Positions 10,890-32,048 are shown, numbered from the stretch's first letter. The stretch is 59,552 bases of DNA from Candidatus Altiarchaeota archaeon (GCA_030590165.1 JAUUZA010000001.1:1-59552), one strand, 5' to 3'. The notes: generated by a model from the letters alone, not told the origin. Translations and numbers: made by a program.

Positions 10890-11389
10890 TCTCTTCCAAT
10901 AACTGTATAAATTAAATCAGTAGGAAGAACTCGTATCCAACCAACAAGTGGCATAAGAAAAACTGCCTTTCCCTTTACCCATTCTTCTTTCACTAACCAA
11001 GGGTCTTGTGCTGGATTTCTGTCTCCTTTGGTCACATAACCGTTTTCAGTAACCTCAATAACCCTATGAATAATTGCATACCTAAGATTCGGGTTAACAT
11101 AAACAATTACATCCCCAACTTCTATTTCTTTTGCTGAACCAATAATTAGTGCATCACCCTTATTAAATCCAACTTCAAAAGGAAACTCCCCTAAACTCTC
11201 ACGAGAAAATCCCTCGTCTTGCATCCAAACATAATAATTTTGAACTGAATATGCATCATGAACCATGCTCTCACTCATAACCGCAACAAAGGGAAAACTA
11301 GTTCCTAAAACGAAACCAAAAACAATACGCAAAAACATTGCCACAGTAAAAGCCCAAGCAATATCATAAAGAGTCTTACTTATTTTCAT
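10886..11389 (-). CDS. signal peptidase I, archaeal Sec11-type
   Basis: N-terminal TM helix followed by the AVMSESMVH block (catalytic Ser/His motif region of S26B peptidases). Confidence 0.65.
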   Translation of the reverse strand: MKISKTLYDIAWAFTVAMFLRIVFGFVLGTSFPFVAVMSESMVHDAYSVQNYYVWMQDEGFSRESLGEFPFEVGFNKGDALIIGSAKEIEVGDVIVYVNPNLRYAIIHRVIEVTENGYVTKGDRNPAQDPWLVKEEWVKGKAVFLMPLVGWIRVLPTDLIYTVIGRD

Positions 11390-12312
11390 TTAGATTGCAC
11401 CAATTTATTTTTTTTAACAATCCACTTATCTAAATCTCGTGATATATATGTTTGAGGGAAAATTTTTATTGCCGCATCTTTCAAAACAGAAAGGTCCATA
11501 TATCTTGGAGAAATATGAATCAAAAATAAAGTATTCACTTTTGCTTTCTTTGCTAATTTAGCGGCATCTTCAACCGAACTATGTCCGCGGTCAAACTGTG
11601 AACCGTCTTTTTCTAAATAAGTTGATTCATGAACAAGAACTGTAACTCCTTTAACATACTCTGCAACTGATTCACTATACTTTGTATCGCCAGTGTAAGC
11701 AAAGGAATCTCCTTTAACTGGAATTAACCATTCACTCGGTTCAAGTTTTTTTCCATCTATTTCAATTGTCTTTCCTTCTTTCAAAAGTCTAAATTTTGGA
11801 CTTGATTTTATGCCTTCTTTTTTCATTCTATCTGAATCAATATTGAAACTATCTTCTTCCCTAAAGAGATATCCAATAGAAGGTGGTCCATGGTCAGTCC
11901 TAAATGCTTTCACTGTATAATTTTTTCCTTTAACAACATCATCATGATTTAATTCATTCACTTCAATTTCAAAAGGGACATGTCCATATCCCAAGGTCAT
12001 AATCTGATTGACGAATTCTTTTGCCCTTGGGGGCCCATATATCCTTAGTTTCTTTGTTCTACCACCCTTTGCCATTGTAAAAATCATACCAGGAAGACCA
12101 TAAAAATGGTCACCGTGAAAATGAGTAATAAAAATTTTATCAACCTTCATTGGTGAAAATCCACTTTGACCTACTCTAATTTGAATTCCTTCACCTACAT
12201 CAAACATTAAAACTTCACCATTATACCTCAACATAATTGAAGAAGTGAATCGTTTTGGCGTTGGTTTCATTGCACCTGTTCCTAAGAAAACAAAATCAAA
12301 CACCGCAGTCAC
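11386..12312 (-). CDS. rnz: ribonuclease Z (tRNA 3' endonuclease, metallo-beta-lactamase fold)
   Basis: FITHFHGDHFYGLPG (HxHxDH motif) and a C-terminal His motif. 308 aa. Confidence 0.8.
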   Translation of the reverse strand: MTAVFDFVFLGTGAMKPTPKRFTSSIMLRYNGEVLMFDVGEGIQIRVGQSGFSPMKVDKIFITHFHGDHFYGLPGMIFTMAKGGRTKKLRIYGPPRAKEFVNQIMTLGYGHVPFEIEVNELNHDDVVKGKNYTVKAFRTDHGPPSIGYLFREEDSFNIDSDRMKKEGIKSSPKFRLLKEGKTIEIDGKKLEPSEWLIPVKGDSFAYTGDTKYSESVAEYVKGVTVLVHESTYLEKDGSQFDRGHSSVEDAAKLAKKAKVNTLFLIHISPRYMDLSVLKDAAIKIFPQTYISRDLDKWIVKKNKLVQSK

Positions 12313-23200: not shown

Positions 23201-23242
23201 GACTTAAATTTTGTTTCCAAAACAGAACAGAAAGAAAAAAAA

Positions 23243-23316
23243 TGCGCCAGCCGGGATTTGAACCCGGGTTTGCGCCGTGGCAGGGCACTGTCCTAGCCAG
23301 GCTAGACTACTAGCGC
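23243..23316 (-). tRNA. tRNA-Gly (GCC)
   Basis: Clean cloverleaf: acceptor GCGCTAG/CTGGCGC, anticodon stem GTGCC/GGCGC, loop CTGCCAC, T loop TTCAAAT. CCA not encoded. Trailer is a plain T8 run. Confidence 0.9.
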
Positions 23317-23613
23317 TTCAATAAATTGATTAAAAATTCATTATTTAAAAGATTTGAGCTTATTTTCATTCAATCCAGTTTTCAAATTATACTTTATTCT
23401 TTGTATCCCTTTCTTCTCCTGCCAAAAAAATATAAAATACCTGTTCGCTTACGATAAAAATCAGTCTTTAATCTATCAATACGCCTTGAAATTCTCTTCA
23501 TCCGTTTGCCAAAAGACTTTTGAGTCTTTTCCACCTAAAATTATTTCCTATTAAATTATCCAATTTTCGTTAAATTTTCAAGTTACACCAATCAGTCTCT
23601 TAATATATTTGAT

Positions 23614-23675
23614 CAAACTTTTCGAGCGAAAGGACAAGCGACTAAAAGGAGCGAGTCCGAAGCGAGAAAAGTTTG
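23614..23675. repeat. tRNA-3'-flanking palindromic element (copy at tRNA-Arg)
   Basis: CAAACTTTTCGAGCG...GAGAAAAGTTTG: 10-bp terminal inverted repeats and an internal GGAC/GTCC stem. The right end overlaps the tRNA-Arg 3' end by 2 nt. Confidence 0.7.
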
Positions 23676-23748
23676 GGCCTAGCGGGATTTGAACCCGCGA
23701 CTTACAGCTTAGAAGGCTGTCGCCCTATCCAGGCTAGGCTATAGGCCC
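23674..23748 (-). tRNA. tRNA-Arg (TCT)
   Basis: Acceptor GGGCCTA/TAGGCCC, anticodon stem ACAGC/GCTGT, loop CTTCTAA, T loop TTCAAAT. TATA TTATTATAAAAG about 27 nt upstream. Confidence 0.9.
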
Positions 23749-23770
23749 TTATCTAAAATAGACAAACTAC

Positions 23771-23782
23771 TTTTATAATAAC
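23771..23782. promoter_or_regulatory. bidirectional TATA box (TTTTATAATAAC) between tRNA-Arg and the downstream surface-protein gene
   Basis: Lies about 27 nt upstream of the tRNA-Arg 5' end on the minus strand and about 20 nt upstream of the GTG at 23798 on the plus strand (leaderless arrangement). Confidence 0.4.
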
Positions 23783-23797
23783 TGTCCTAAGAATTTT

Positions 23798-25855
23798 GTG
23801 TCGACAACCACCATTCATCATGTTCCAATTCTCTTACAAACTTTGGTTGTCGGGTTGCTAACAGTTCTTGTCGGTTGGAAAATTGCTGCCTTAATTTCAA
23901 ATCCTGTTATTTATCTTGACCCTGCACTTGAAACTGCTGCAAATGAACTTGCAATTGTGTGTGAAGGAAAATTAACTTCAACGACATTGACTCCGCCACC
24001 ACCTGGAGCGAATTATATTATAACAACTTGTTTAGACAAAAGTGCAGCGACCTTGGGATCTACGGCATTCACTCTTTATCAAATGAAAGACCTCATAAAA
24101 AGTGGAAAAGATTTTATTTCTTTTTTCAAATCTCCAAAAAATAATTTAGGAACTCTGTGGAAAAAGTTAGGAAAAGGACTCAACAATCTTGAAGAGGTTG
24201 GTAATTTAAGAAAACCAACTAGTGACCTCTTGGATACTATTGGAGATGTAGGAAACTCTATTGATGATGTCCAAGACGCATTAAAAAGTTTAGAAAATCT
24301 CCCAATTGATAATGTTGACGAAGTAAAAAAGTTACTCACACAAACTGATGACATAAAAGCAAATTTAAAAATTCTTGAAAATTATAAAACCGCAGGGGCA
24401 CCACCTCTAGATCCTAACAGTGAAGAATATGAAAAAATTATAAAAGCAATTAATGACCTTAAATCCCAAACTGCTAGTTTAGAAAATGGTCTCACAAGCT
24501 TTGCTGGTGGTCTAAATAAATTTCTTAAAACAGCAAATAATGCAGGAACTCTTGCCGCTGTTCTTCCAAAAAAATCAAAGGGCCTTACTATTTTCTCTTC
24601 CAAAACTAATAAAGTAATAAGTTCTGCTAAAACAACCTTACTCGATTTAAGTGATTGGCAAGCATCTAAAAATGTTTTCAAAACAATTAATCATGTAATA
24701 ACCTCTATTTCAAGTGGTATTAAGAAGAATAGAAAATCCATTCTTTATGCCAAAAACGCAATGAAATTTGCTCAAGATGTCTCATCTGAAAAAAATAGGC
24801 AAATTATTGATTCATATTTAACAACAAATAGTGAAGTATTCGAAATCTTAGCGGGTTCATTTATTGGGATACCATATTCACCCCTCGTCATAAATATAAT
24901 TAATATGACTGAAGATGATCCAAGGAATGACCGACTAATTGAATTTTCACAATCTGCCTTATATGTGACAGGGGATATGTCTAGTTATACTCGACAATTT
25001 AGAAAAGACAGTTCAACTTTCTTAGCCAGTAGGGGTTATTATCTTACTTCTTCCTTCATAAACGATTTGAATGATTACGAAATTTTAACCTATGACAGTC
25101 AAACGAATATTAATCCTTCAATCTTTTTCAGGCTTGCTTCGGAATTCGCAATCAAGTCAAAACCAATTTGTGAAGAAAGTGAAAATTGCGACACTTACTT
25201 TTCTGACCTTTTTGAATATTCAGTTAATATGAATTTAGATACTACTACTCTCGATGAATTTGAAACAATTTCTAAGTCAAATAATCCTTCAATCATCAAT
25301 CATGAATATCTAAAATTTGCTGATGTATTAAATTTCTTCAAAGAAAAAGATATTGAAGCTGGTCCTGTTTTTGATGACGCCGTTGAAGTTCAAAAAGAGG
25401 TTGGAAGTTGGATGGGTGAAAATTGCGAAACTTCTATTTTAAATCTTGATGAAATTGGTCCTGTTGAAGTAACTTCTTGTGGATTAGTAATTGATTGTTC
25501 ACCTATTGAATTTTGTTATGTTGGTCTCCCAGTAGTGAATGCCGATCCTTGGATTCCTTATATTCCTGTAACTTACTTAGACGGAGATGAGGTTGAAGGA
25601 CTTGGAAATTTAATAGGGATGAACTATGACTCAACAGAAAGGGTAATAACCCCAAAATGGTGGGGAGGGGCCTGTCTAACCCCAAGACAACTTGAACACA
25701 TTTATATTTGTGTATCTTTACCTAGTTTCAGTCGGTGTAAGGTTGTTGACTGTGGGAAACAATTGGATATTGAACCAACAAGATTTACCCCAACAGTAAC
25801 TGCTGAAGATATTGGAGAAAAAATGGAAATAAGGGGGAACTTCGCAACATGGTAA
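23798..25855 (+). CDS. large N-terminally anchored extracellular protein, hypothetical (Cys-rich C-terminal region)
   Basis: 685 aa. GTG start, N-terminal hydrophobic anchor ILLQTLVVGLLTVLVGWKIAALI, long N/S/T-rich middle, about 12 Cys in the last 230 aa. Confidence 0.5.
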   Translation: MSTTTIHHVPILLQTLVVGLLTVLVGWKIAALISNPVIYLDPALETAANELAIVCEGKLTSTTLTPPPPGANYIITTCLDKSAATLGSTAFTLYQMKDLIKSGKDFISFFKSPKNNLGTLWKKLGKGLNNLEEVGNLRKPTSDLLDTIGDVGNSIDDVQDALKSLENLPIDNVDEVKKLLTQTDDIKANLKILENYKTAGAPPLDPNSEEYEKIIKAINDLKSQTASLENGLTSFAGGLNKFLKTANNAGTLAAVLPKKSKGLTIFSSKTNKVISSAKTTLLDLSDWQASKNVFKTINHVITSISSGIKKNRKSILYAKNAMKFAQDVSSEKNRQIIDSYLTTNSEVFEILAGSFIGIPYSPLVINIINMTEDDPRNDRLIEFSQSALYVTGDMSSYTRQFRKDSSTFLASRGYYLTSSFINDLNDYEILTYDSQTNINPSIFFRLASEFAIKSKPICEESENCDTYFSDLFEYSVNMNLDTTTLDEFETISKSNNPSIINHEYLKFADVLNFFKEKDIEAGPVFDDAVEVQKEVGSWMGENCETSILNLDEIGPVEVTSCGLVIDCSPIEFCYVGLPVVNADPWIPYIPVTYLDGDEVEGLGNLIGMNYDSTERVITPKWWGGACLTPRQLEHIYICVSLPSFSRCKVVDCGKQLDIEPTRFTPTVTAEDIGEKMEIRGNFATW

Positions 25856-26193
25856 AACAAATTATAATAGTTAGGAAAGACATCAAAATGGGAAAAGGAA
25901 AAACTGCAGCACAAGTGGCCCACGCAAGTCTCGGTGCATATAAAAAAGCAAAAAAACTTTCACCTAAACTAATTGCAGAATGGGAAAGTGAAGGTGAGAA
26001 AAAAGTTGTTCTCAAGGGAACGCTTGAAGACCTCATTAATTTTAAGCAATGGGCGGATGCAAAAAAAATCCCAAGTTACATGGTAAGTGACGCAGGAAGA
26101 ACCCAACTCGCACCTGGAACTGTAACTACACTTGGAATAGGTCCAGAAAAAGATGAAGAACTCAAAGAAACTAAAATTCTTAAATTACTTTAA
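25849..26193 (+). CDS. pth2: peptidyl-tRNA hydrolase, archaeal Pth2 type
   Basis: KQIIIVRKDIKMGKGKTAAQVAHASL...DAGRTQLAPGTVTTLGIGP, full-length match to the PTH2 family. Confidence 0.85.
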   Translation: MVKQIIIVRKDIKMGKGKTAAQVAHASLGAYKKAKKLSPKLIAEWESEGEKKVVLKGTLEDLINFKQWADAKKIPSYMVSDAGRTQLAPGTVTTLGIGPEKDEELKETKILKLL

Positions 26194-26694
26194 TTACCAA
26201 TTATATGAAACTTCTTCAGTTTGAGTACCAGAATCCTTCCATCCTTCCTTTGAAAGTTCAAGAGCCTTCTTTACAGTTGGAAGAGTTCTCTCAAGCTCAT
26301 TTGTCACAAAAGTAATGGTTTCAACCATTATTTGTTCTGGGTTTTCACTTGTTGTGGCTTCAAAAGCACGAAGTGAAAAAGTCTTGTGCAAAACTACACA
26401 AGTCTTCAAAACATCCATCAATTCAGTTTTCATATGTTTTACAAATTTATTATCTTGAGATAAAATGAAATCAGTTGGCGAAATAAAACCTATCATTCCA
26501 TTTGCTAAGTGTATTGGGGCTTTTCTTGAAAACGCAAAAAGACTTAGAACACTATCAACATCATCTTCTTTTGGGAAACCAAAAACAGACATAAATGTTT
26601 TCAATTCAGGTAAATCCTTATGTTTCTTTTTTAATTTAGAATATTCAACTCTAATTTCTTTAATTCCCGTCATACACTTTACATAAATAGTCAT
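26194..26694 (-). CDS. hypothetical protein
   Basis: 166 aa, mixed alpha/beta, no recognisable motif. Confidence 0.35.
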   Translation of the reverse strand: MTIYVKCMTGIKEIRVEYSKLKKKHKDLPELKTFMSVFGFPKEDDVDSVLSLFAFSRKAPIHLANGMIGFISPTDFILSQDNKFVKHMKTELMDVLKTCVVLHKTFSLRAFEATTSENPEQIMVETITFVTNELERTLPTVKKALELSKEGWKDSGTQTEEVSYNW

Positions 26695-26747
26695 TTATAA
26701 GGCTTAAAGACGGTTAATCTTTTAAATAACTACTTTAAAATAAAAAC

Positions 26748-26957
26748 ATGAAATACAATCTAAAATTAAGGTATAAACCAATTCTTGATGAAACTCTCAG
26801 CTCTTTAGATGATGGGAGTATAAAATTTGAAACAACGAAAAATTTTGTAGAGGGTTTGTATAACGAAACAAAATTATCAAAAAATGAGATAGGTACTGCA
26901 ATAAAATGTGCAATATTAAACAGCCTTTGTGTTTATGTAAATCAAAATGAAAAATAA
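26748..26957 (+). CDS. hypothetical small protein
   Basis: 69 aa. TATA-like CTTTTAAATAAC upstream and a hairpin/T8 terminator (ACTCAATTTTTTTTGAGT) downstream. Confidence 0.35.
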   Translation: MKYNLKLRYKPILDETLSSLDDGSIKFETTKNFVEGLYNETKLSKNEIGTAIKCAILNSLCVYVNQNEK

Positions 26958-26994
26958 ATTTTAAATAAAATATATTTTACTCAATTTTTTTTGA

Positions 26995-27223
26995 GTGTAT
27001 CCCGCGAAGCGAGAGCAGTGAAAAAAAGTTGCCAAGTATAAGCGGGATTTGTGGGAGGAAATTTTATTCAAACTTTTCGAGCGGACCCCTGCGAGGAAAG
27101 CGAGCAGGGGGTAGTGAGAAAAGCTTGTCCCGCATAGGCGGGACTTGCAGAAGGAAATTTTACTCAAGCTTTTCGAGCGGACCCCTGCGAGGAAAGCGAG
27201 CAGGGGGTAGTGAGAAAAGCTTG
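26995..27223. repeat. tandem array of tRNA-flanking palindromic modules (two full ~100-nt units plus a degenerate third) ending at tRNA-Leu
   Basis: Unit = [TCCCGC-loop-GCGGGA hairpin][TTGCAGAAGGAAATTTTACTCAAG][CTTTTCGAGCGG ACCCCTGC GAGGAAAGCGAG CAGGGGG TAGTGAGAAAAGCTTG]. The 59-nt core occurs twice (27069-27127 and 27165-27223) and is identical apart from its first few bases. The inner stem CCCCTGC/GCAGGGG equals the tRNA-Leu acceptor stem. Confidence 0.75.
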
Positions 27224-27306
27224 CAGGGGATGAGATTTGAACTCACGAACCCACTAGGGACAGGAATCTGAATCCTGCGCGTTTGGCCAAGCTCCGCCAC
27301 CCCTGC
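27222..27306 (-). tRNA. tRNA-Leu (CAG), long variable arm
   Basis: Acceptor GCAGGGG/CCCCTGC, anticodon stem CAGGA/TCCTG, loop TTCAGAT, 14-nt variable arm, T loop TTCAAAT. TATA about 28 nt upstream. Confidence 0.85.
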
Positions 27307-27356
27307 AGCAATTATCCTTTCAAAGAGTAATTTAAATATGTAGTTTCATACTTATT

Positions 27357-27911
27357 GTGGACCCACGAATTAAAGTTGCACTCAAAGCCATAGAAATTAT
27401 GGAGAAATTACAACATTCAAAACTCCTTCGTTCTGATTTTCACGTCCTTACATCAAAAGTTAAACAACTTCAATGGATTGAAGATTTAAATTACTTGAAA
27501 AAAGAATGTGATTTTTTAGAAAAATTTTCATATGATTCTCTAAAATTTGATTCAAAAATAAATGCTGAAATGAAATGGTGCACAAACACTTTGAAAAAAC
27601 TCAAGTCTCGATTTGACAAGGGAAAAAGTGAATCAATTCTCGTAGGTCTTGATGTTGGTGTTGGTGAAATAATAACCACTTCAAAAGTTTCGGATAAACT
27701 TACTGTTTGTCGAATATCTTCAAAAATAGGGGATTTTACAGTTATCACAAATTTGAGTGTGAAAAAAGGAAATCGTTTGCCCTTTGTAATTTTACCGCCA
27801 ACTGTAATTGGCGGTGTAATGAGCGAAGCTATGTTTGTTTGGGGGCCAATTAAATCCCTTGATGAAATTGATTGGAAGAAGGTTGAGGGGACTGTTTCTG
27901 CTTTCTTCTAA
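27357..27911 (+). CDS. hypothetical protein flanked by tRNA genes and their palindromic elements
   Basis: 184 aa. Helical N-terminal half, Gly/Val-rich beta-like C-terminal half (GLDVGVGEIITT...VIGGVMSEAMFVWGP). No family recognised. Confidence 0.4.
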   Translation: MDPRIKVALKAIEIMEKLQHSKLLRSDFHVLTSKVKQLQWIEDLNYLKKECDFLEKFSYDSLKFDSKINAEMKWCTNTLKKLKSRFDKGKSESILVGLDVGVGEIITTSKVSDKLTVCRISSKIGDFTVITNLSVKKGNRLPFVILPPTVIGGVMSEAMFVWGPIKSLDEIDWKKVEGTVSAFF

Positions 27912-27914
27912 CTT

Positions 27915-27991
27915 TGATGAAACTTTTCGAGCGGAGCCCGAATCCCGCGTAGAGGAAGAGCGGGATGAGGGCGTAGTGAAGAAAAGTTTCT
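27915..27991. repeat. tRNA-3'-flanking palindromic element (copy at tRNA-Val)
   Basis: GAAACTTTTCGAGCGG...GTAGTGAAGAAAAGTTTC with perfect 10-bp TIRs and an internal GCCC-TCCCGC/GCGGGA-GGGC stem. Ends 1 nt before the tRNA-Val 3' end. Confidence 0.7.
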
Positions 27992-28065
27992 TGGGGCTGC
28001 CCGGATTCGAACCGGGGACCTCCGCCGTGTGAGGGCGGCGTCATAGCCAACTAAACCACAACCCC
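27992..28065 (-). tRNA. tRNA-Val (CAC)
   Basis: Acceptor GGGGTTG/CAGCCCC, anticodon stem CCGCC/GGCGG, loop CTCACAC, T loop TTCGAAT. TATA about 27 nt upstream. Track ORFs 27835..28032 and 27850..28050 are spurious here. Confidence 0.85.
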
Positions 28066-30799: not shown

Positions 30800-31357
30800 T
30801 CAAATATACATAGTTGATTTTTTCCTAGACGTATCTAATTTTCCTTCAACATCTTTCTTATCAACTTCATAAGCCATTATTGTTTTTGCAAGATTAATAT
30901 TATCTGACGGTACGACCCTAAAATGATTTTTATCTGAAAAAAAGTAAGCCAAATCCTCTTCAATAACTGAAGCCAAACAATCTGCATACCCACTTAAATT
31001 CTCAAAATACTCCTTTACTTTGTCAACATAAATTCCAAGTTCATTAATAGGTTCTTCAGCTTTCATAAATGCCTCAGTTGATCGTTTGAGCAAGATAAGT
31101 GTTGCTCGTAGGTCTTGATAAATATTATTTCCAAACAATAATTCACCTTCTTTAAATTCAAGGAATTTTGATACTTCACTTTCATATATTGAAGATTCCA
31201 TGCGCTTCAAATCTTCTGCTTGTTGATAAAGTCCTTTTTCAATTAACTCTAATTTTTCAAACAATTCTTCATCTGTAACCTCAAAAAAAGTCTCAAAAAT
31301 TTTTCCAGTTCCATCCCGAACCTCTATTTTTCTTCTCTCTTTTGGTATTTTAACCAT
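30800..31357 (-). CDS. hypothetical acidic helical protein, paralog A of a tandem pair
   Basis: 185 aa, about 55% identical to the upstream paralog. Shares an identical LYQQAEDLKRMESSIYESE block and an identical KSTMYI C-terminus. Confidence 0.55.
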   Translation of the reverse strand: MVKIPKERRKIEVRDGTGKIFETFFEVTDEELFEKLELIEKGLYQQAEDLKRMESSIYESEVSKFLEFKEGELLFGNNIYQDLRATLILLKRSTEAFMKAEEPINELGIYVDKVKEYFENLSGYADCLASVIEEDLAYFFSDKNHFRVVPSDNINLAKTIMAYEVDKKDVEGKLDTSRKKSTMYI

Positions 31358-31490: not shown

Positions 31491-32048
31491 TCAAATATAC
31501 ATAGTTGATTTTTCCTTAGTGAGCTTTTTTTTATCCTCAAGAATTCCCTTCTCCACTTCAAGCTCCATTACTATTTTTGCCATACTAATACTGTTTGAAG
31601 GTATGGCTCTTAACTGATTTTTATCTGAAATAAAATAAGACATTCCTTCTTCAACAGTTGCTCCCAAATTAAGTGTATACTCATTTAACTTCTTAAAATA
31701 CTTCATTACGTCCTCAATATAAATTCCAAATTCATCAATTGGTTCTTCAGCTTTTAGAAATGCTTCTGTTGCTCGTTTGAATAAATTAAGTGTTGCCTGT
31801 TGGTCTTGATAAACATCATTTCCAGACAATAAATCTTCTTCATTAAATTCAAGAAATTTTGATGCTTCACTTTCATATATTGACGATTCCATGCGTTTCA
31901 AATCTTCTGCTTGTTGATAAAGTTCTTTTTCAACTAACTTTAATCTTTCAGAAAACTCTTCACCTAAAACTTCTGAATAAACTTCAACAAGTTCTCCATC
32001 GTCGTTATGAATTTCAATTTTTTGTTTTTCTTTTAATTTTTTAACCAT
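31491..32048 (-). CDS. hypothetical acidic helical protein, paralog B of a tandem pair
   Basis: 185 aa. Same promoter/5'UTR sequence (TATTTTAAAAGAAATA...) and same 3' end as paralog A. Confidence 0.55.
   Translation of the reverse strand: MVKKLKEKQKIEIHNDDGELVEVYSEVLGEEFSERLKLVEKELYQQAEDLKRMESSIYESEASKFLEFNEEDLLSGNDVYQDQQATLNLFKRATEAFLKAEEPIDEFGIYIEDVMKYFKKLNEYTLNLGATVEEGMSYFISDKNQLRAIPSNSISMAKIVMELEVEKGILEDKKKLTKEKSTMYI

What the first reader, a model, noticed from the sequence alone, without database searches (positions are those of the whole stretch)
23614..27991. Family of GC-rich palindromic elements welded to the 3' ends of tRNA genes
Three of the four tRNA genes (Arg, Leu, Val; all minus strand) are followed within 0-2 nt of their discriminator base by a 60-75 nt element. 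The element has about 10-bp terminal inverted repeats (GAAACTTTTC...GAAAAGTTTC), a conserved core (CTTTTCGAGCG[G/A] ... GTAGTGA[A/G]GAAAAG) and a strong internal GC-rich stem in otherwise about 30% GC DNA. tRNA-Gly instead has a plain T8 terminator.

The element is symmetric, so both strands begin with CTTTTC. The TTTT after the tRNA could serve as a leaky terminator, and the hairpin as a processing or termination structure or a small structured RNA. In the Leu copy the inner stem is an exact copy of the tRNA-Leu acceptor stem (CCCCTGC/GCAGGGG). No target-site duplication is visible, so a MITE-like mobile origin is possible but unproven. I cannot match this to a described archaeal tRNA-trailer element from memory.
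Basis: seen in the sequence. Interest (0 to 1): 0.75.

Follow-up and report, generated by a model that had tools for sequence, protein, structure and literature searches.

The report
Palindromic hairpin elements abutting tRNA genes
Three of the four tRNA genes on this archaeal contig are followed directly by a conserved hairpin-forming palindrome with a short T-run on each strand; the same element sits behind the same tRNA genes in related uncultivated archaea, and it is most likely a two-way transcription stop or boundary signal, although its function is unproven.

Summary
The window holds four full copies and one decayed copy of a 59-72 nt imperfect palindrome. All lie on the 3' side of tRNA-Arg, tRNA-Leu (a three-unit tandem array, 96-bp period) and tRNA-Val, 0-3 nt from the discriminator. 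A covariance model finds nothing else in 59.5 kb, and all copies have the same orientation relative to the tRNA.

The contig comes from an Altiarchaeota-like archaeon. Syntenic contigs of relatives (34-63% GC) carry the same element behind the same tRNAs. The arms CAARC-T4-6 ... A4-6-GYTTG are conserved and keep pairing through compensatory changes. The cores vary from empty to about 80 nt of GC hairpins and share an AGCGAG/CGAGCG (tandem G.A) motif.

There is no Rfam match, no target-site duplication, no transposase nearby, and no significant similarity to the cognate tRNA in the window.

Best reading (about 0.4): a tRNA-gene 3' boundary element. Mirrored oligo-T tracts stop transcription from both sides, and the GC core stabilises the downstream duplex or folds in read-through RNA.

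Unexplained: the motif is conserved, and the loops are 84% purine on the strand antisense to the tRNA. This keeps two rivals alive: a strand-specific, protein-recognised or REP-like hairpin, and a trailer RNA released by RNase Z.

It is moderately interesting and appears undescribed.

The parts
23614..23675 (.). Arg copy of the element. Arms CAAACTTTTC / GAAAAGTTTG; the last 2 nt overlap A73 and C72 of tRNA-Arg. Core has stems GGAC/GUCC, GC/GC and CU/AG separated by purine mismatches. The conserved 5' flank TTTGAT lies at 23608-23613.
   Evidence: model R1 hit 23608-23675 on the + strand, 66.1 bits
23674..23748 (-). tRNA-Arg(TCT). It has its own TATA-like box, TTATAAAAG on the minus strand, about 25-33 nt upstream.
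26976..27031 (.). Decayed third unit of the Leu array. It includes T8 at 26985-26992, which also lies just after the + strand ORF 26748-26957.
   Evidence: R1 hit, 32 bits, E 2.4e-5, not in the seed alignment; 96-nt unit 27004-27099 is 79% identical to 27100-27195
27069..27127 (.). Leu distal copy. It is identical to the proximal copy except for one base in the 5' arm.
   Evidence: 63.5 bits
27127..27144 (.). Small hairpin GTCCCGC-ATAG-GCGGGAC between the two Leu copies. On the tRNA-sense strand it is followed by AAGCTTTTCT, so it occupies the position that the tRNA holds relative to the proximal copy.
27165..27223 (.). Leu proximal copy. Arms CAAGCTTTTC / GAAAAGCTTG; inner stem CCCCTGC/GCAGGGG; it abuts tRNA-Leu.
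   Evidence: 67.1 bits
27221..27307 (-). tRNA-Leu(CAG)
27919..27990 (.). Val copy. Arms GAAACTTTTC / GAAAAGTTTC; two-tier GC stem (GCCC/GGGC and ATCCCGC/GCGGGAT) with a GA/GA step. It starts 8 nt after the stop codon of the convergent + strand ORF 27357-27911.
   Evidence: 59.9 bits
27992..28065 (-). tRNA-Val(CAC)
23235..23316 (-). tRNA-Gly(GCC) with a plain T8 directly after it (A8 at 23235-23242 on the + strand). It has no palindrome and serves as the contrast case.

Best explanation
The element is a lineage-specific (Altiarchaeota-type) 3' boundary module of tRNA genes.

Anatomy, written on the strand antisense to the tRNA: TTTT(T)-GRT-CAARC-T4-6-[core]-A4-6-GYTTG-|tRNA.

Proposed mechanism:
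- Because the arms are a palindrome, an RNA polymerase coming from either side first meets an oligo-T tract and then a GC-rich core.
- The T-run that starts 2-6 nt after the discriminator ends tRNA transcription, in the archaeal, Pol III-like way.
- The mirrored T-run(s) stop convergent or neighbouring transcription before it can run antisense through the tRNA gene.
- The GC-rich core raises duplex stability just downstream of short T4-T5 tracts. In RNA that reads through, the core and arms zip into a long hairpin that closes off the 3' end.
- The family changes by local tandem duplication and by gain and loss of hairpins.

Shown here: the position, polarity, conservation at orthologous tRNAs, arm covariation, T-runs on both strands, and the existence of empty and expanded forms.

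Inferred: that termination happens at these T-runs, that the core strengthens it, and that the hairpin forms in RNA.
For: - Every copy in the window abuts a tRNA 3' end, and there are no others in 59.5 kb.
- The same holds in about 81 kb of related contigs, with one exception.
- The AT-rich arms and the T-runs persist in relatives with 42-63% GC.
- Empty palindromes occur at the same place, for example CAAACTTTTTTCTAAAAAGTTTG in L197 and AAGCTTTTTCTAAAAGCTT in L202. The T/A arms are therefore the constant part.
- The element separates tRNA-Arg from the tRNA-Gly promoter in L195, and separates tRNAs from convergent ORFs in the window.
- tRNA-Gly uses a plain T8 at the equivalent position.
- Published work supports the parts of the mechanism. 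T5 suffices for efficient archaeal termination, T4 gives about 50%, and no upstream hairpin is needed. For Pol III, lowering duplex stability downstream of a T5 tract weakens termination (PMC2253867).
- No transposase or integrase lies in the window.
Against: - Archaeal termination does not need hairpins, so this model does not explain the compensatory changes in the arms or the perfectly paired but unrelated inner stems.
- The conserved AGCGAG/CGAGCG (tandem G.A) motif, and the 84% purine content of loops on one strand, point to strand-specific recognition rather than simple duplex stability.
- The window copies have only T4, and the Val copy's outer flank has only T3.
- Convergent protein-coding gene pairs in the window, L202 and L203 have no such elements.
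- The core is absent at some orthologous sites, so it cannot be essential.
- No expression data were available.
Confidence: 0.4

Rival explanations
1. The element is a strand-specific hairpin, folded on the strand antisense to the tRNA as single-stranded DNA or RNA, and recognised by a dedicated protein. It would be a REP-like, selfish or domesticated palindrome that occupies and spreads among the palindromic terminators of tRNA genes, or a binding site that marks tRNA-gene boundaries.
For: - The antisense strand folds better in 12 of 14 copies.
- 178 of 212 unpaired core residues are purines on that strand.
- The motif 5'-GCGAG-3'/5'-CGAGC-3' gives tandem G.A pairs, which from my own knowledge are a very stable motif in both RNA and DNA.
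- The loop blocks are identical at three tRNAs within the window genome but differ from those of the relatives, while the stems are unrelated. This is what co-evolution with a trans factor would give.
- Filled and empty orthologous sites both exist.
- Small hairpin modules recur in either orientation.
- Candidatus Altiarchaeum hamiconexum is reported to have the highest MITE density among archaea (PMC11602168).
Against: - No Y1/HUH transposase, RAYT or other transposase lies in the window.
- There are only five copies in 59.5 kb, all at tRNAs, with no dispersed copies.
- Locus-specific signatures of the arm-closing pair are kept across genomes (G-C for Arg, C-G for Leu, GC-GC for Val, in L195, L198, L200, L201, L202). 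This indicates long vertical inheritance rather than recent insertion.
- The insertion boundaries show no hallmark of transposition.
Confidence: 0.2
2. The element is a tRNA-linked trailer RNA. It is co-transcribed with the tRNA, RNase Z cuts after the discriminator, and a stable hairpin RNA with pyrimidine-rich loops is released and has a function of its own, or controls 3' processing.
For: - The element starts 0-3 nt after the discriminator, and its orientation relative to the tRNA is fixed.
- The window copies have only T4, which is leaky in vitro.
- A tRNase Z-like metallo-beta-lactamase is encoded at 11386-12312.
- Three arm mismatches become G.U pairs on the tRNA-sense strand (and the sequences).
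Against: - A T5-T6 tract sits at the very 5' end of the would-be RNA in most relatives and should terminate most transcripts.
- The sense strand is the less stable fold, with C.U and U.C mismatches.
- There are no C/D or H/ACA boxes and no Rfam hit.
- The apical loops are not conserved.
- Empty versions exist.
Confidence: 0.15
3. The element is a relic of recombination at tRNA genes. The sequence behind the tRNA would be left over from integrative elements (att-site flanks), or from tandem duplication of the tRNA 3' end with its trailer, later turned into a palindrome. It would have no present function beyond the T-run.
For: - True partial copies of the tRNA 3' end, starting in or near the T-loop, lie 82-106 bp downstream of the tRNA in L197 (16 nt, score 32, 0 of 200 shuffles), L202 (19 nt, 0 of 200; three to four units) and L204 (25 nt exact).
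- Tandem arrays recur: window Leu, L200 Leu, L202 Val, L196 Val.
- The Leu inner stems match the cognate acceptor stem in the window and in L197, and they differ between the two genomes in step with the tRNA.
Against: - In the window no element or 96-bp unit resembles its tRNA more than shuffles do.
- The loop motif and arms are conserved across tRNA types and across genomes of very different GC content, which neutral relics would not be.
- No integrase gene or fragment lies nearby.
Confidence: 0.1
4. The element is a classical MITE, mobilised by a DDE transposase, that happens to have landed near tRNA genes.
For: It has 10-bp terminal inverted repeats, is small, and has several copies. A high MITE density is reported for Candidatus Altiarchaeum.
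Against: - There is no target-site duplication.
- Every copy sits in the same position and orientation relative to a tRNA.
- The interiors are unrelated between copies while the termini and loops are shared.
- The element occupies orthologous sites in distant relatives.
- No transposase is present in the window.
Confidence: 0.03

Closest known systems
Archaeal (Pol III-like) oligo-T terminators
   Same: A T-run of 4-6 nt directly follows the tRNA, just as the plain T8 does behind tRNA-Gly. T5 is the minimal efficient signal in vitro (PMC2253867).
   Different: Here the T-run is one arm of a conserved 10-bp inverted repeat that covaries and encloses a GC hairpin. Hairpins are not part of the described archaeal signal.
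Bacterial bidirectional intrinsic terminators
   Same: A single palindromic element sits between convergent transcription units and presents the same signal on both strands.
   Different: The polarity is reversed. Here the order is U-tract, hairpin, A-tract on each strand, so the U-tract comes before the hairpin. The bacterial order is A-tract, hairpin, U-tract.
REP/BIME extragenic palindromes (RAYT-mobilised) of bacteria
   Same: Both are short imperfect GC-rich palindromes with conserved mismatches, found at gene 3' ends. Both show strand asymmetry, clustering and tandem arrangement.
   Different: This family is tied to tRNA genes only, has AT-rich outer arms, has no RAYT gene nearby, is archaeal, and has a low copy number as far as could be seen.
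Methanopyrus kandleri motif CGTTA-N9-TAACG, about 10 bp downstream of tRNA genes (PMC5217627)
   Same: It is a lineage-specific palindrome placed just behind about half of the tRNA genes of one archaeon. Its function is unknown, and a role in 3' maturation has been proposed.
   Different: The sequence is different. It is much shorter (19 nt), has no T/A arms, no GC core, and no reported tandem copies.
[quoted passage not shown]
   Same: A structured RNA-coding sequence starts immediately after the tRNA, so an RNase Z cut would create its 5' end.
   Different: The present element has no C/D boxes or guide regions. A T-run sits at its 5' end, and the core varies and can be absent.
Pol III terminators modulated by downstream duplex stability (Braglia et al. 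2005, as cited in PMC2253867)
   Same: A short T tract is followed by a stable duplex, and that stability strengthens termination.
   Different: This was shown for eukaryotic Pol III only. It has not been tested for archaeal polymerase or for this element.

Membership tests
MITE | Terminal inverted repeats of at least 10 bp | tested here: met
   CAAACTTTTC/GAAAAGTTTG and its variants
MITE | Target-site duplication of 2-10 bp flanking the element | tested here: not met
   The flanks differ at every copy, for example GAT...GGC, ACT...CAG and GAT...TTG.
MITE | Dispersed copies with a homologous interior, and a related transposase | tested here: not met
   All copies are at tRNA 3' ends. The interiors are unrelated between loci. 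No transposase lies in the window. The rest of the genome could not be reached.
REP/BIME | Imperfect GC-rich palindrome with conserved mismatches and strand asymmetry | tested here: met
REP/BIME | An associated RAYT (Y1 transposase) gene and a high extragenic copy number | tested here: inconclusive
   There is none in the 59.5-kb window (Pfam scans). The other contigs of this genome could not be retrieved.
Bacterial-type intrinsic terminator | A GC-rich hairpin immediately followed by a U-tract | tested here: not met
   On both strands the U-tract comes before the hairpin and an A-tract follows it. Terminator-like sites are not enriched: 10 found against 8.5 expected.
Archaeal oligo-T terminator | A run of at least 4-5 T on the non-template strand directly after the gene | tested here: met
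   T4 in the window and T5-T6 in relatives, 2-6 nt after the discriminator. The function itself was not tested.
C/D box or H/ACA sRNA linked to a tRNA | C/D (RUGAUGA/CUGA) boxes or an ACA box, and a K-turn with a 3-nt bulge | tested here: not met
   No Rfam hit at gathering or E-value thresholds. By inspection the internal loops are symmetric, and no box sequences are present.
Any Rfam 15 family | A covariance-model match | tested here: not met
   Only the tRNAs match. The best sub-threshold hit in the region is CRISPR-DR28 on the 18-nt hairpin, at E 0.51.
Integrase att-site duplication at a tRNA gene | A direct repeat of the tRNA 3' part downstream of the gene | tested here: not met
   Window: nothing above shuffle level. 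The feature is met in relatives L197, L202 and L204.
M. kandleri tRNA-downstream palindrome | CGTTA-N9-TAACG about 10 bp after the tRNA | tested here: not met
   By inspection, this sequence is absent from the elements. Only the location is analogous.

The most novel reading that the evidence does not exclude
The core is not a passive GC clamp. It is a strand-specific, purine-looped hairpin with tandem G.A pairs that a dedicated factor of this lineage recognises. This would make it a previously undescribed class of archaeal element specific to tRNA genes. It could be a REP-like palindrome that homes to the palindromic terminators of tRNA genes, or a boundary or processing signal that couples tRNA 3'-end formation to a protein partner that has co-evolved with the loop motif.
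Probability: 0.2. Interest if true: 0.75.

Novelty: new variant of a known kind. Interest (0 to 1): 0.5.

Why it matters
- Archaeal termination is thought to need only oligo-T. A conserved, covarying hairpin palindrome attached specifically to tRNA genes would show that some archaea build more elaborate, two-way gene boundaries around their most heavily transcribed small genes.
- It would give a concrete, testable case for how tRNA genes are shielded from antisense read-through in tightly packed genomes.
- If the core is instead recognised strand-specifically, it would be the first REP-like or protein-bound tRNA-flank element described in archaea.
- Practically, the motif marks tRNA 3' ends in Altiarchaeota-type genomes. 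It is also a likely source of MITE calls in that lineage.

Tried and rejected
1. DNA-pattern scans with CTTTTCGAGCGRA-N20-50-GYGARRAAA. The representative-genome collection gave 74 single hits in unrelated bacteria. None of the best-folding or lowest-GC hits inspected had the arm/core architecture, so both sets look like chance. The viral collection gave 0 hits. Absence from the metagenomes cannot be concluded.

2. Exact look-ups of window proteins, to find the source genome's other contigs, all failed. The cluster look-up gave no names.

3. The 685-aa neighbouring protein had no word-level homologues. Relatives were reached through Pth2 and AlaRS instead.

4. The idea that the core is a decayed copy of the cognate tRNA 3' end, or that the 96-bp unit is a decayed tRNA-Leu gene, is rejected for the window. 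Cognate scores equal non-cognate and shuffle scores.

5. The idea that the orphan element L196 3537-3581 marks a lost tRNA-Val is not supported by sequence.

6. K-turn, loop E, bulge-helix-bulge and hammerhead readings of the internal loops were rejected by inspection, and Rfam gave nothing.

7. Bacterial-type terminators are not enriched.

8. A promoter reading of the 5' flank was considered. It is TATA-like only in the AT-rich window genome and not in GC-rich relatives, and the predicted transcription start would fall inside the element. Rejected.

Full report
**1. What is in the window**

ARAGORN and Rfam agree on four minus-strand tRNA genes: Gly 23243-23316, Arg 23674-23748, Leu 27221-27307 and Val 27992-28065.

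The core CTTTTCGAGCG occurs exactly four times, at 23618, 27073, 27169 and 27923. A descriptor scan delimits four full elements:
- 23614-23675 (Arg)
- 27069-27127 (Leu distal)
- 27165-27223 (Leu proximal)
- 27919-27990 (Val)

Each element has three parts:
- 10-bp arms, C/GAARCTTTTC ... GAAAAGYTTG/C;
- a conserved pair of internal-loop blocks, C-GAGCGRA ... GWAGYGA-G;
- an inner GC stem whose sequence is unrelated between loci but always complementary: GGAC/GUCC; CCCCUGC/GCAGGGG; GCCC/GGGC plus AUCCCGC/GCGGGAU.

The folds are far more stable than shuffles, with z from -4.3 to -7.3 on the + strand.

The covariance model R1 was built without that unit and finds it at 26976-27031 (32 bits).

With filters off, R1 finds only these five sites in the window. 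The four full copies score 60-67 bits, and the next unrelated hit scores 15.6 bits. The same loci on the opposite strand score only 12-16 bits. The element is therefore polar and always faces the tRNA the same way.

No other non-coding repeat family exists in the window. tRNA-Gly has a plain T8 instead.

**2. Where it comes from**

The window is an entire NCBI contig. It carries archaeal housekeeping genes: PCNA, TBP, Kae1, GatE, AspRS, AlaRS, exosome subunits, a proteasome subunit, RFC, Pth2 and a tRNase Z-like enzyme. No transposase or integrase is present.

Its AlaRS belongs to a tight group of 16 other proteins at 55-70% identity. The only named members are 'Candidatus Altiarchaeota archaeon'. 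Identity then drops to about 45%. I therefore treat the organism as Altiarchaeota-like. It was not placed phylogenetically.

**3. Relatives**

Both large DNA-pattern scans returned only chance hits. Syntenic contigs were reached through Pth2 and AlaRS homologues instead.

These contigs range from 42 to 63% GC, against 34% for the window. They keep the gene order: an approximately 690-aa protein, Pth2, a 158-aa protein, and the same tRNA-Gly, -Arg, -Leu and -Val genes.

Almost every one of these tRNAs is followed by the same architecture. Written on the strand antisense to the tRNA it is TTTT(T)GRTCAARC-T4-6-[core]-A4-6-GYTTG, abutting the discriminator.

R1 recovers copies that were not in its seed alignment:
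- L201 Arg;
- the empty palindromes of L197 Arg and L202 Leu;
- L204;
- L196 3537-3581.

The best hit outside such sites is an AT-rich palindrome in L203, at 19.7 bits.

The descriptor scan covered 137 kb. Every hit with a GC-rich core is within 3 nt of a tRNA 3' end, or lies in a tandem array behind one. The single exception is L196 3543-3581, which follows a protein-coding gene. I could not show that it marks a lost tRNA.

**4. Structure and evolution**

*Arms.* The non-T/A part of the arms covaries. The variants are CAAAC/GTTTG, CAAGC/GCTTG, CAACC/GGTTG, GAAAC/GTTTC and TAAGC/GCTTA. Four of five pairs show changes on both sides, 91.7% of cells are paired, and 0 of 500 shuffles reach the observed score.

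*Cores.* The cores range from nothing to about 80 nt holding two or three hairpins:
- Empty: L197 Arg, CAAACTTTTTTCTAAAAAGTTTG; L202 Leu.
- Largest: L201 Arg.

Most cores share AGCGAG 5' of the stem and CGAGCG 3' of it. These pair as G-C, C-G, G.A, A.G, G-C, which is a tandem G.A motif. From my own knowledge this motif is very stable in both RNA and DNA.

*Locus signatures.* The closing pair of the arms is specific to each tRNA and is kept across L195, L198, L200, L201 and L202: G-C for Arg, C-G for Leu and GC-GC for Val. This argues for vertical inheritance at each tRNA. In the window genome, by contrast, all three loci share one variant of the loop blocks.

*Tandem duplication.* Duplication recurs independently in window Leu, L200 Leu, L202 Val and L196 Val.

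*Partial tRNA copies.* True partial copies of the tRNA 3' end lie 82-106 bp downstream in L197, L202 and L204. In the window, however, neither the elements nor the 96-bp unit resemble their tRNAs above shuffle level.

**5. Which strand?**

As RNA, the strand antisense to the tRNA folds better in 12 of 14 copies. The summed energies are -348 against -289 kcal/mol. With DNA parameters the difference is small.

Of 212 unpaired core residues, 178 are purines on that strand. Predicted G.U pairs number 11 against 6. Arm mismatches slightly favour the sense strand.

The asymmetry is therefore real, but its meaning is open. Both strands have T-runs placed before the core. In relatives with T5-T6, these should keep most transcription out of the core. 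T5 is efficient and T4 about 50% in a Pyrococcus in vitro system.

**6. Explanation**

I favour, at about 0.4, a tRNA-gene 3' boundary element with these steps:
- The tRNA-proximal T-run terminates the tRNA transcript.
- The mirrored T-runs stop incoming transcription before it becomes antisense tRNA.
- The GC core stabilises the duplex just downstream of short T tracts. This effect is documented for Pol III.
- In read-through RNA the core folds with the arms.

This accounts for the position, the symmetry, the persistence of AT-rich arms in GC-rich genomes, the empty forms, and the plain T8 at tRNA-Gly.

It does not account for the arm covariation, the conserved G.A motif or the purine-loop asymmetry. 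Those features keep three rivals alive:
- a strand-specific, protein-recognised or REP-like hairpin (0.2);
- an RNase Z-released trailer RNA (0.15);
- a relic of recombination or integration at tRNA genes (0.1).

A classical MITE is essentially excluded. There is no target-site duplication, the position and orientation are fixed, the interiors are unrelated, and the same sites are occupied in distant relatives.

**7. Comparison with what is known**

No Rfam family matches. My literature searches found no description of such an element in Altiarchaeota.

The nearest analogues are:
- the M. kandleri palindrome CGTTA-N9-TAACG behind tRNA genes, which has a different sequence and unknown function;
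- tRNA-sRNA dicistrons in N. equitans;
- archaeal oligo-T terminators;
- bacterial REP elements and bidirectional terminators, compared from my own knowledge.

Candidatus Altiarchaeum hamiconexum is reported to have the highest MITE density among archaea. Whether those calls include this family could not be checked, because no supplementary files were held.

**8. Verdict**

This is a real, conserved and apparently undescribed family of tRNA-flank palindromes. It is best filed as a new variant of terminator-associated extragenic palindromes. Its mechanism is unproven, and an unexplained strand-specific motif remains.

Interest is 0.5.

Noticed in passing
L204 1-310: A complete tRNA-Arg (128-205) is nested between two fragments. 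Upstream lies a diverged 5' fragment of a tRNA-Arg-like gene (252-275), placed at the normal distance from the conserved promoter AAACTCCTTTTATAA. Downstream lies an exact 25-nt copy of the tRNA's own 3' end (29-53). The palindrome at 54-78 is inverted relative to all other copies.
   Followed up: partly
L202 2186-2528: An array of three to four units of 82-106 bp lies downstream of tRNA-Leu. Each unit holds a partial tRNA-Leu 3' end (GC[A/G]GGGGAAGGGATTTGAC), one or two GC hairpins, and in most units an empty T/A palindrome. One fragment carries the GCAGGGG acceptor variant that the window's tRNA-Leu uses.
   Followed up: partly
L196 4999-5051; also window 27128-27143, L197 2071-2085, L198 1670-1684: A small hairpin module TCCCGC-N3/4-GCGGGA recurs next to tRNA genes in several genomes. 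L196 has three tandem copies, each followed by T4-T5. In L198 the loop is inverted (TCT instead of AGA).
   Followed up: partly
window 23798-25855 (+), with Pth2 at 25849-26193: A 685-aa protein has no Pfam domain and no word-level homologues. Even so, an approximately 670-760-aa gene sits in the same place in every relative that reaches that position, with its stop overlapping the Pth2 start. It looks like a fast-evolving, lineage-specific protein.
   Followed up: partly
window versus L195-L204: Relatives that share this gene order range from 34% to 63% GC. This is a very wide compositional spread for contigs whose Pth2 is 64-68% identical and whose AlaRS is 63-67% identical.
   Followed up: no
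window 23317-23613: A 297-bp stretch with no convincing ORF lies between the Arg element and tRNA-Gly. L197, L198 and L201 have a 124-162-aa gene at this place, and L195 has only 130 bp. The stretch may be a decayed gene. On the minus strand it contains a T7 run (about 23425-23431).
   Followed up: no
window 30800-31357 and 31491-32048: Two adjacent 185-aa paralogous genes have no Pfam match. They are 74% identical over 300 nt of DNA (family D1).
   Followed up: no
window 11386-12312 (-): A metallo-beta-lactamase-fold protein gives a weak match to the tRNase Z N-terminal domain. It is the likely enzyme for tRNA 3'-trailer removal in this organism.
   Followed up: no
L196 3487-3511, L200 1855-1877, L204 105-128: A short hairpin module (GTTGCGTCAGTTGAC or its reverse complement) lies directly upstream of the tRNA-Leu 5' end in L196, with a diverged form (CAACTGGGGTCAGTTGAC) at the same place in L200. 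In L204 it lies directly downstream of tRNA-Arg, in the opposite orientation.
   Followed up: no
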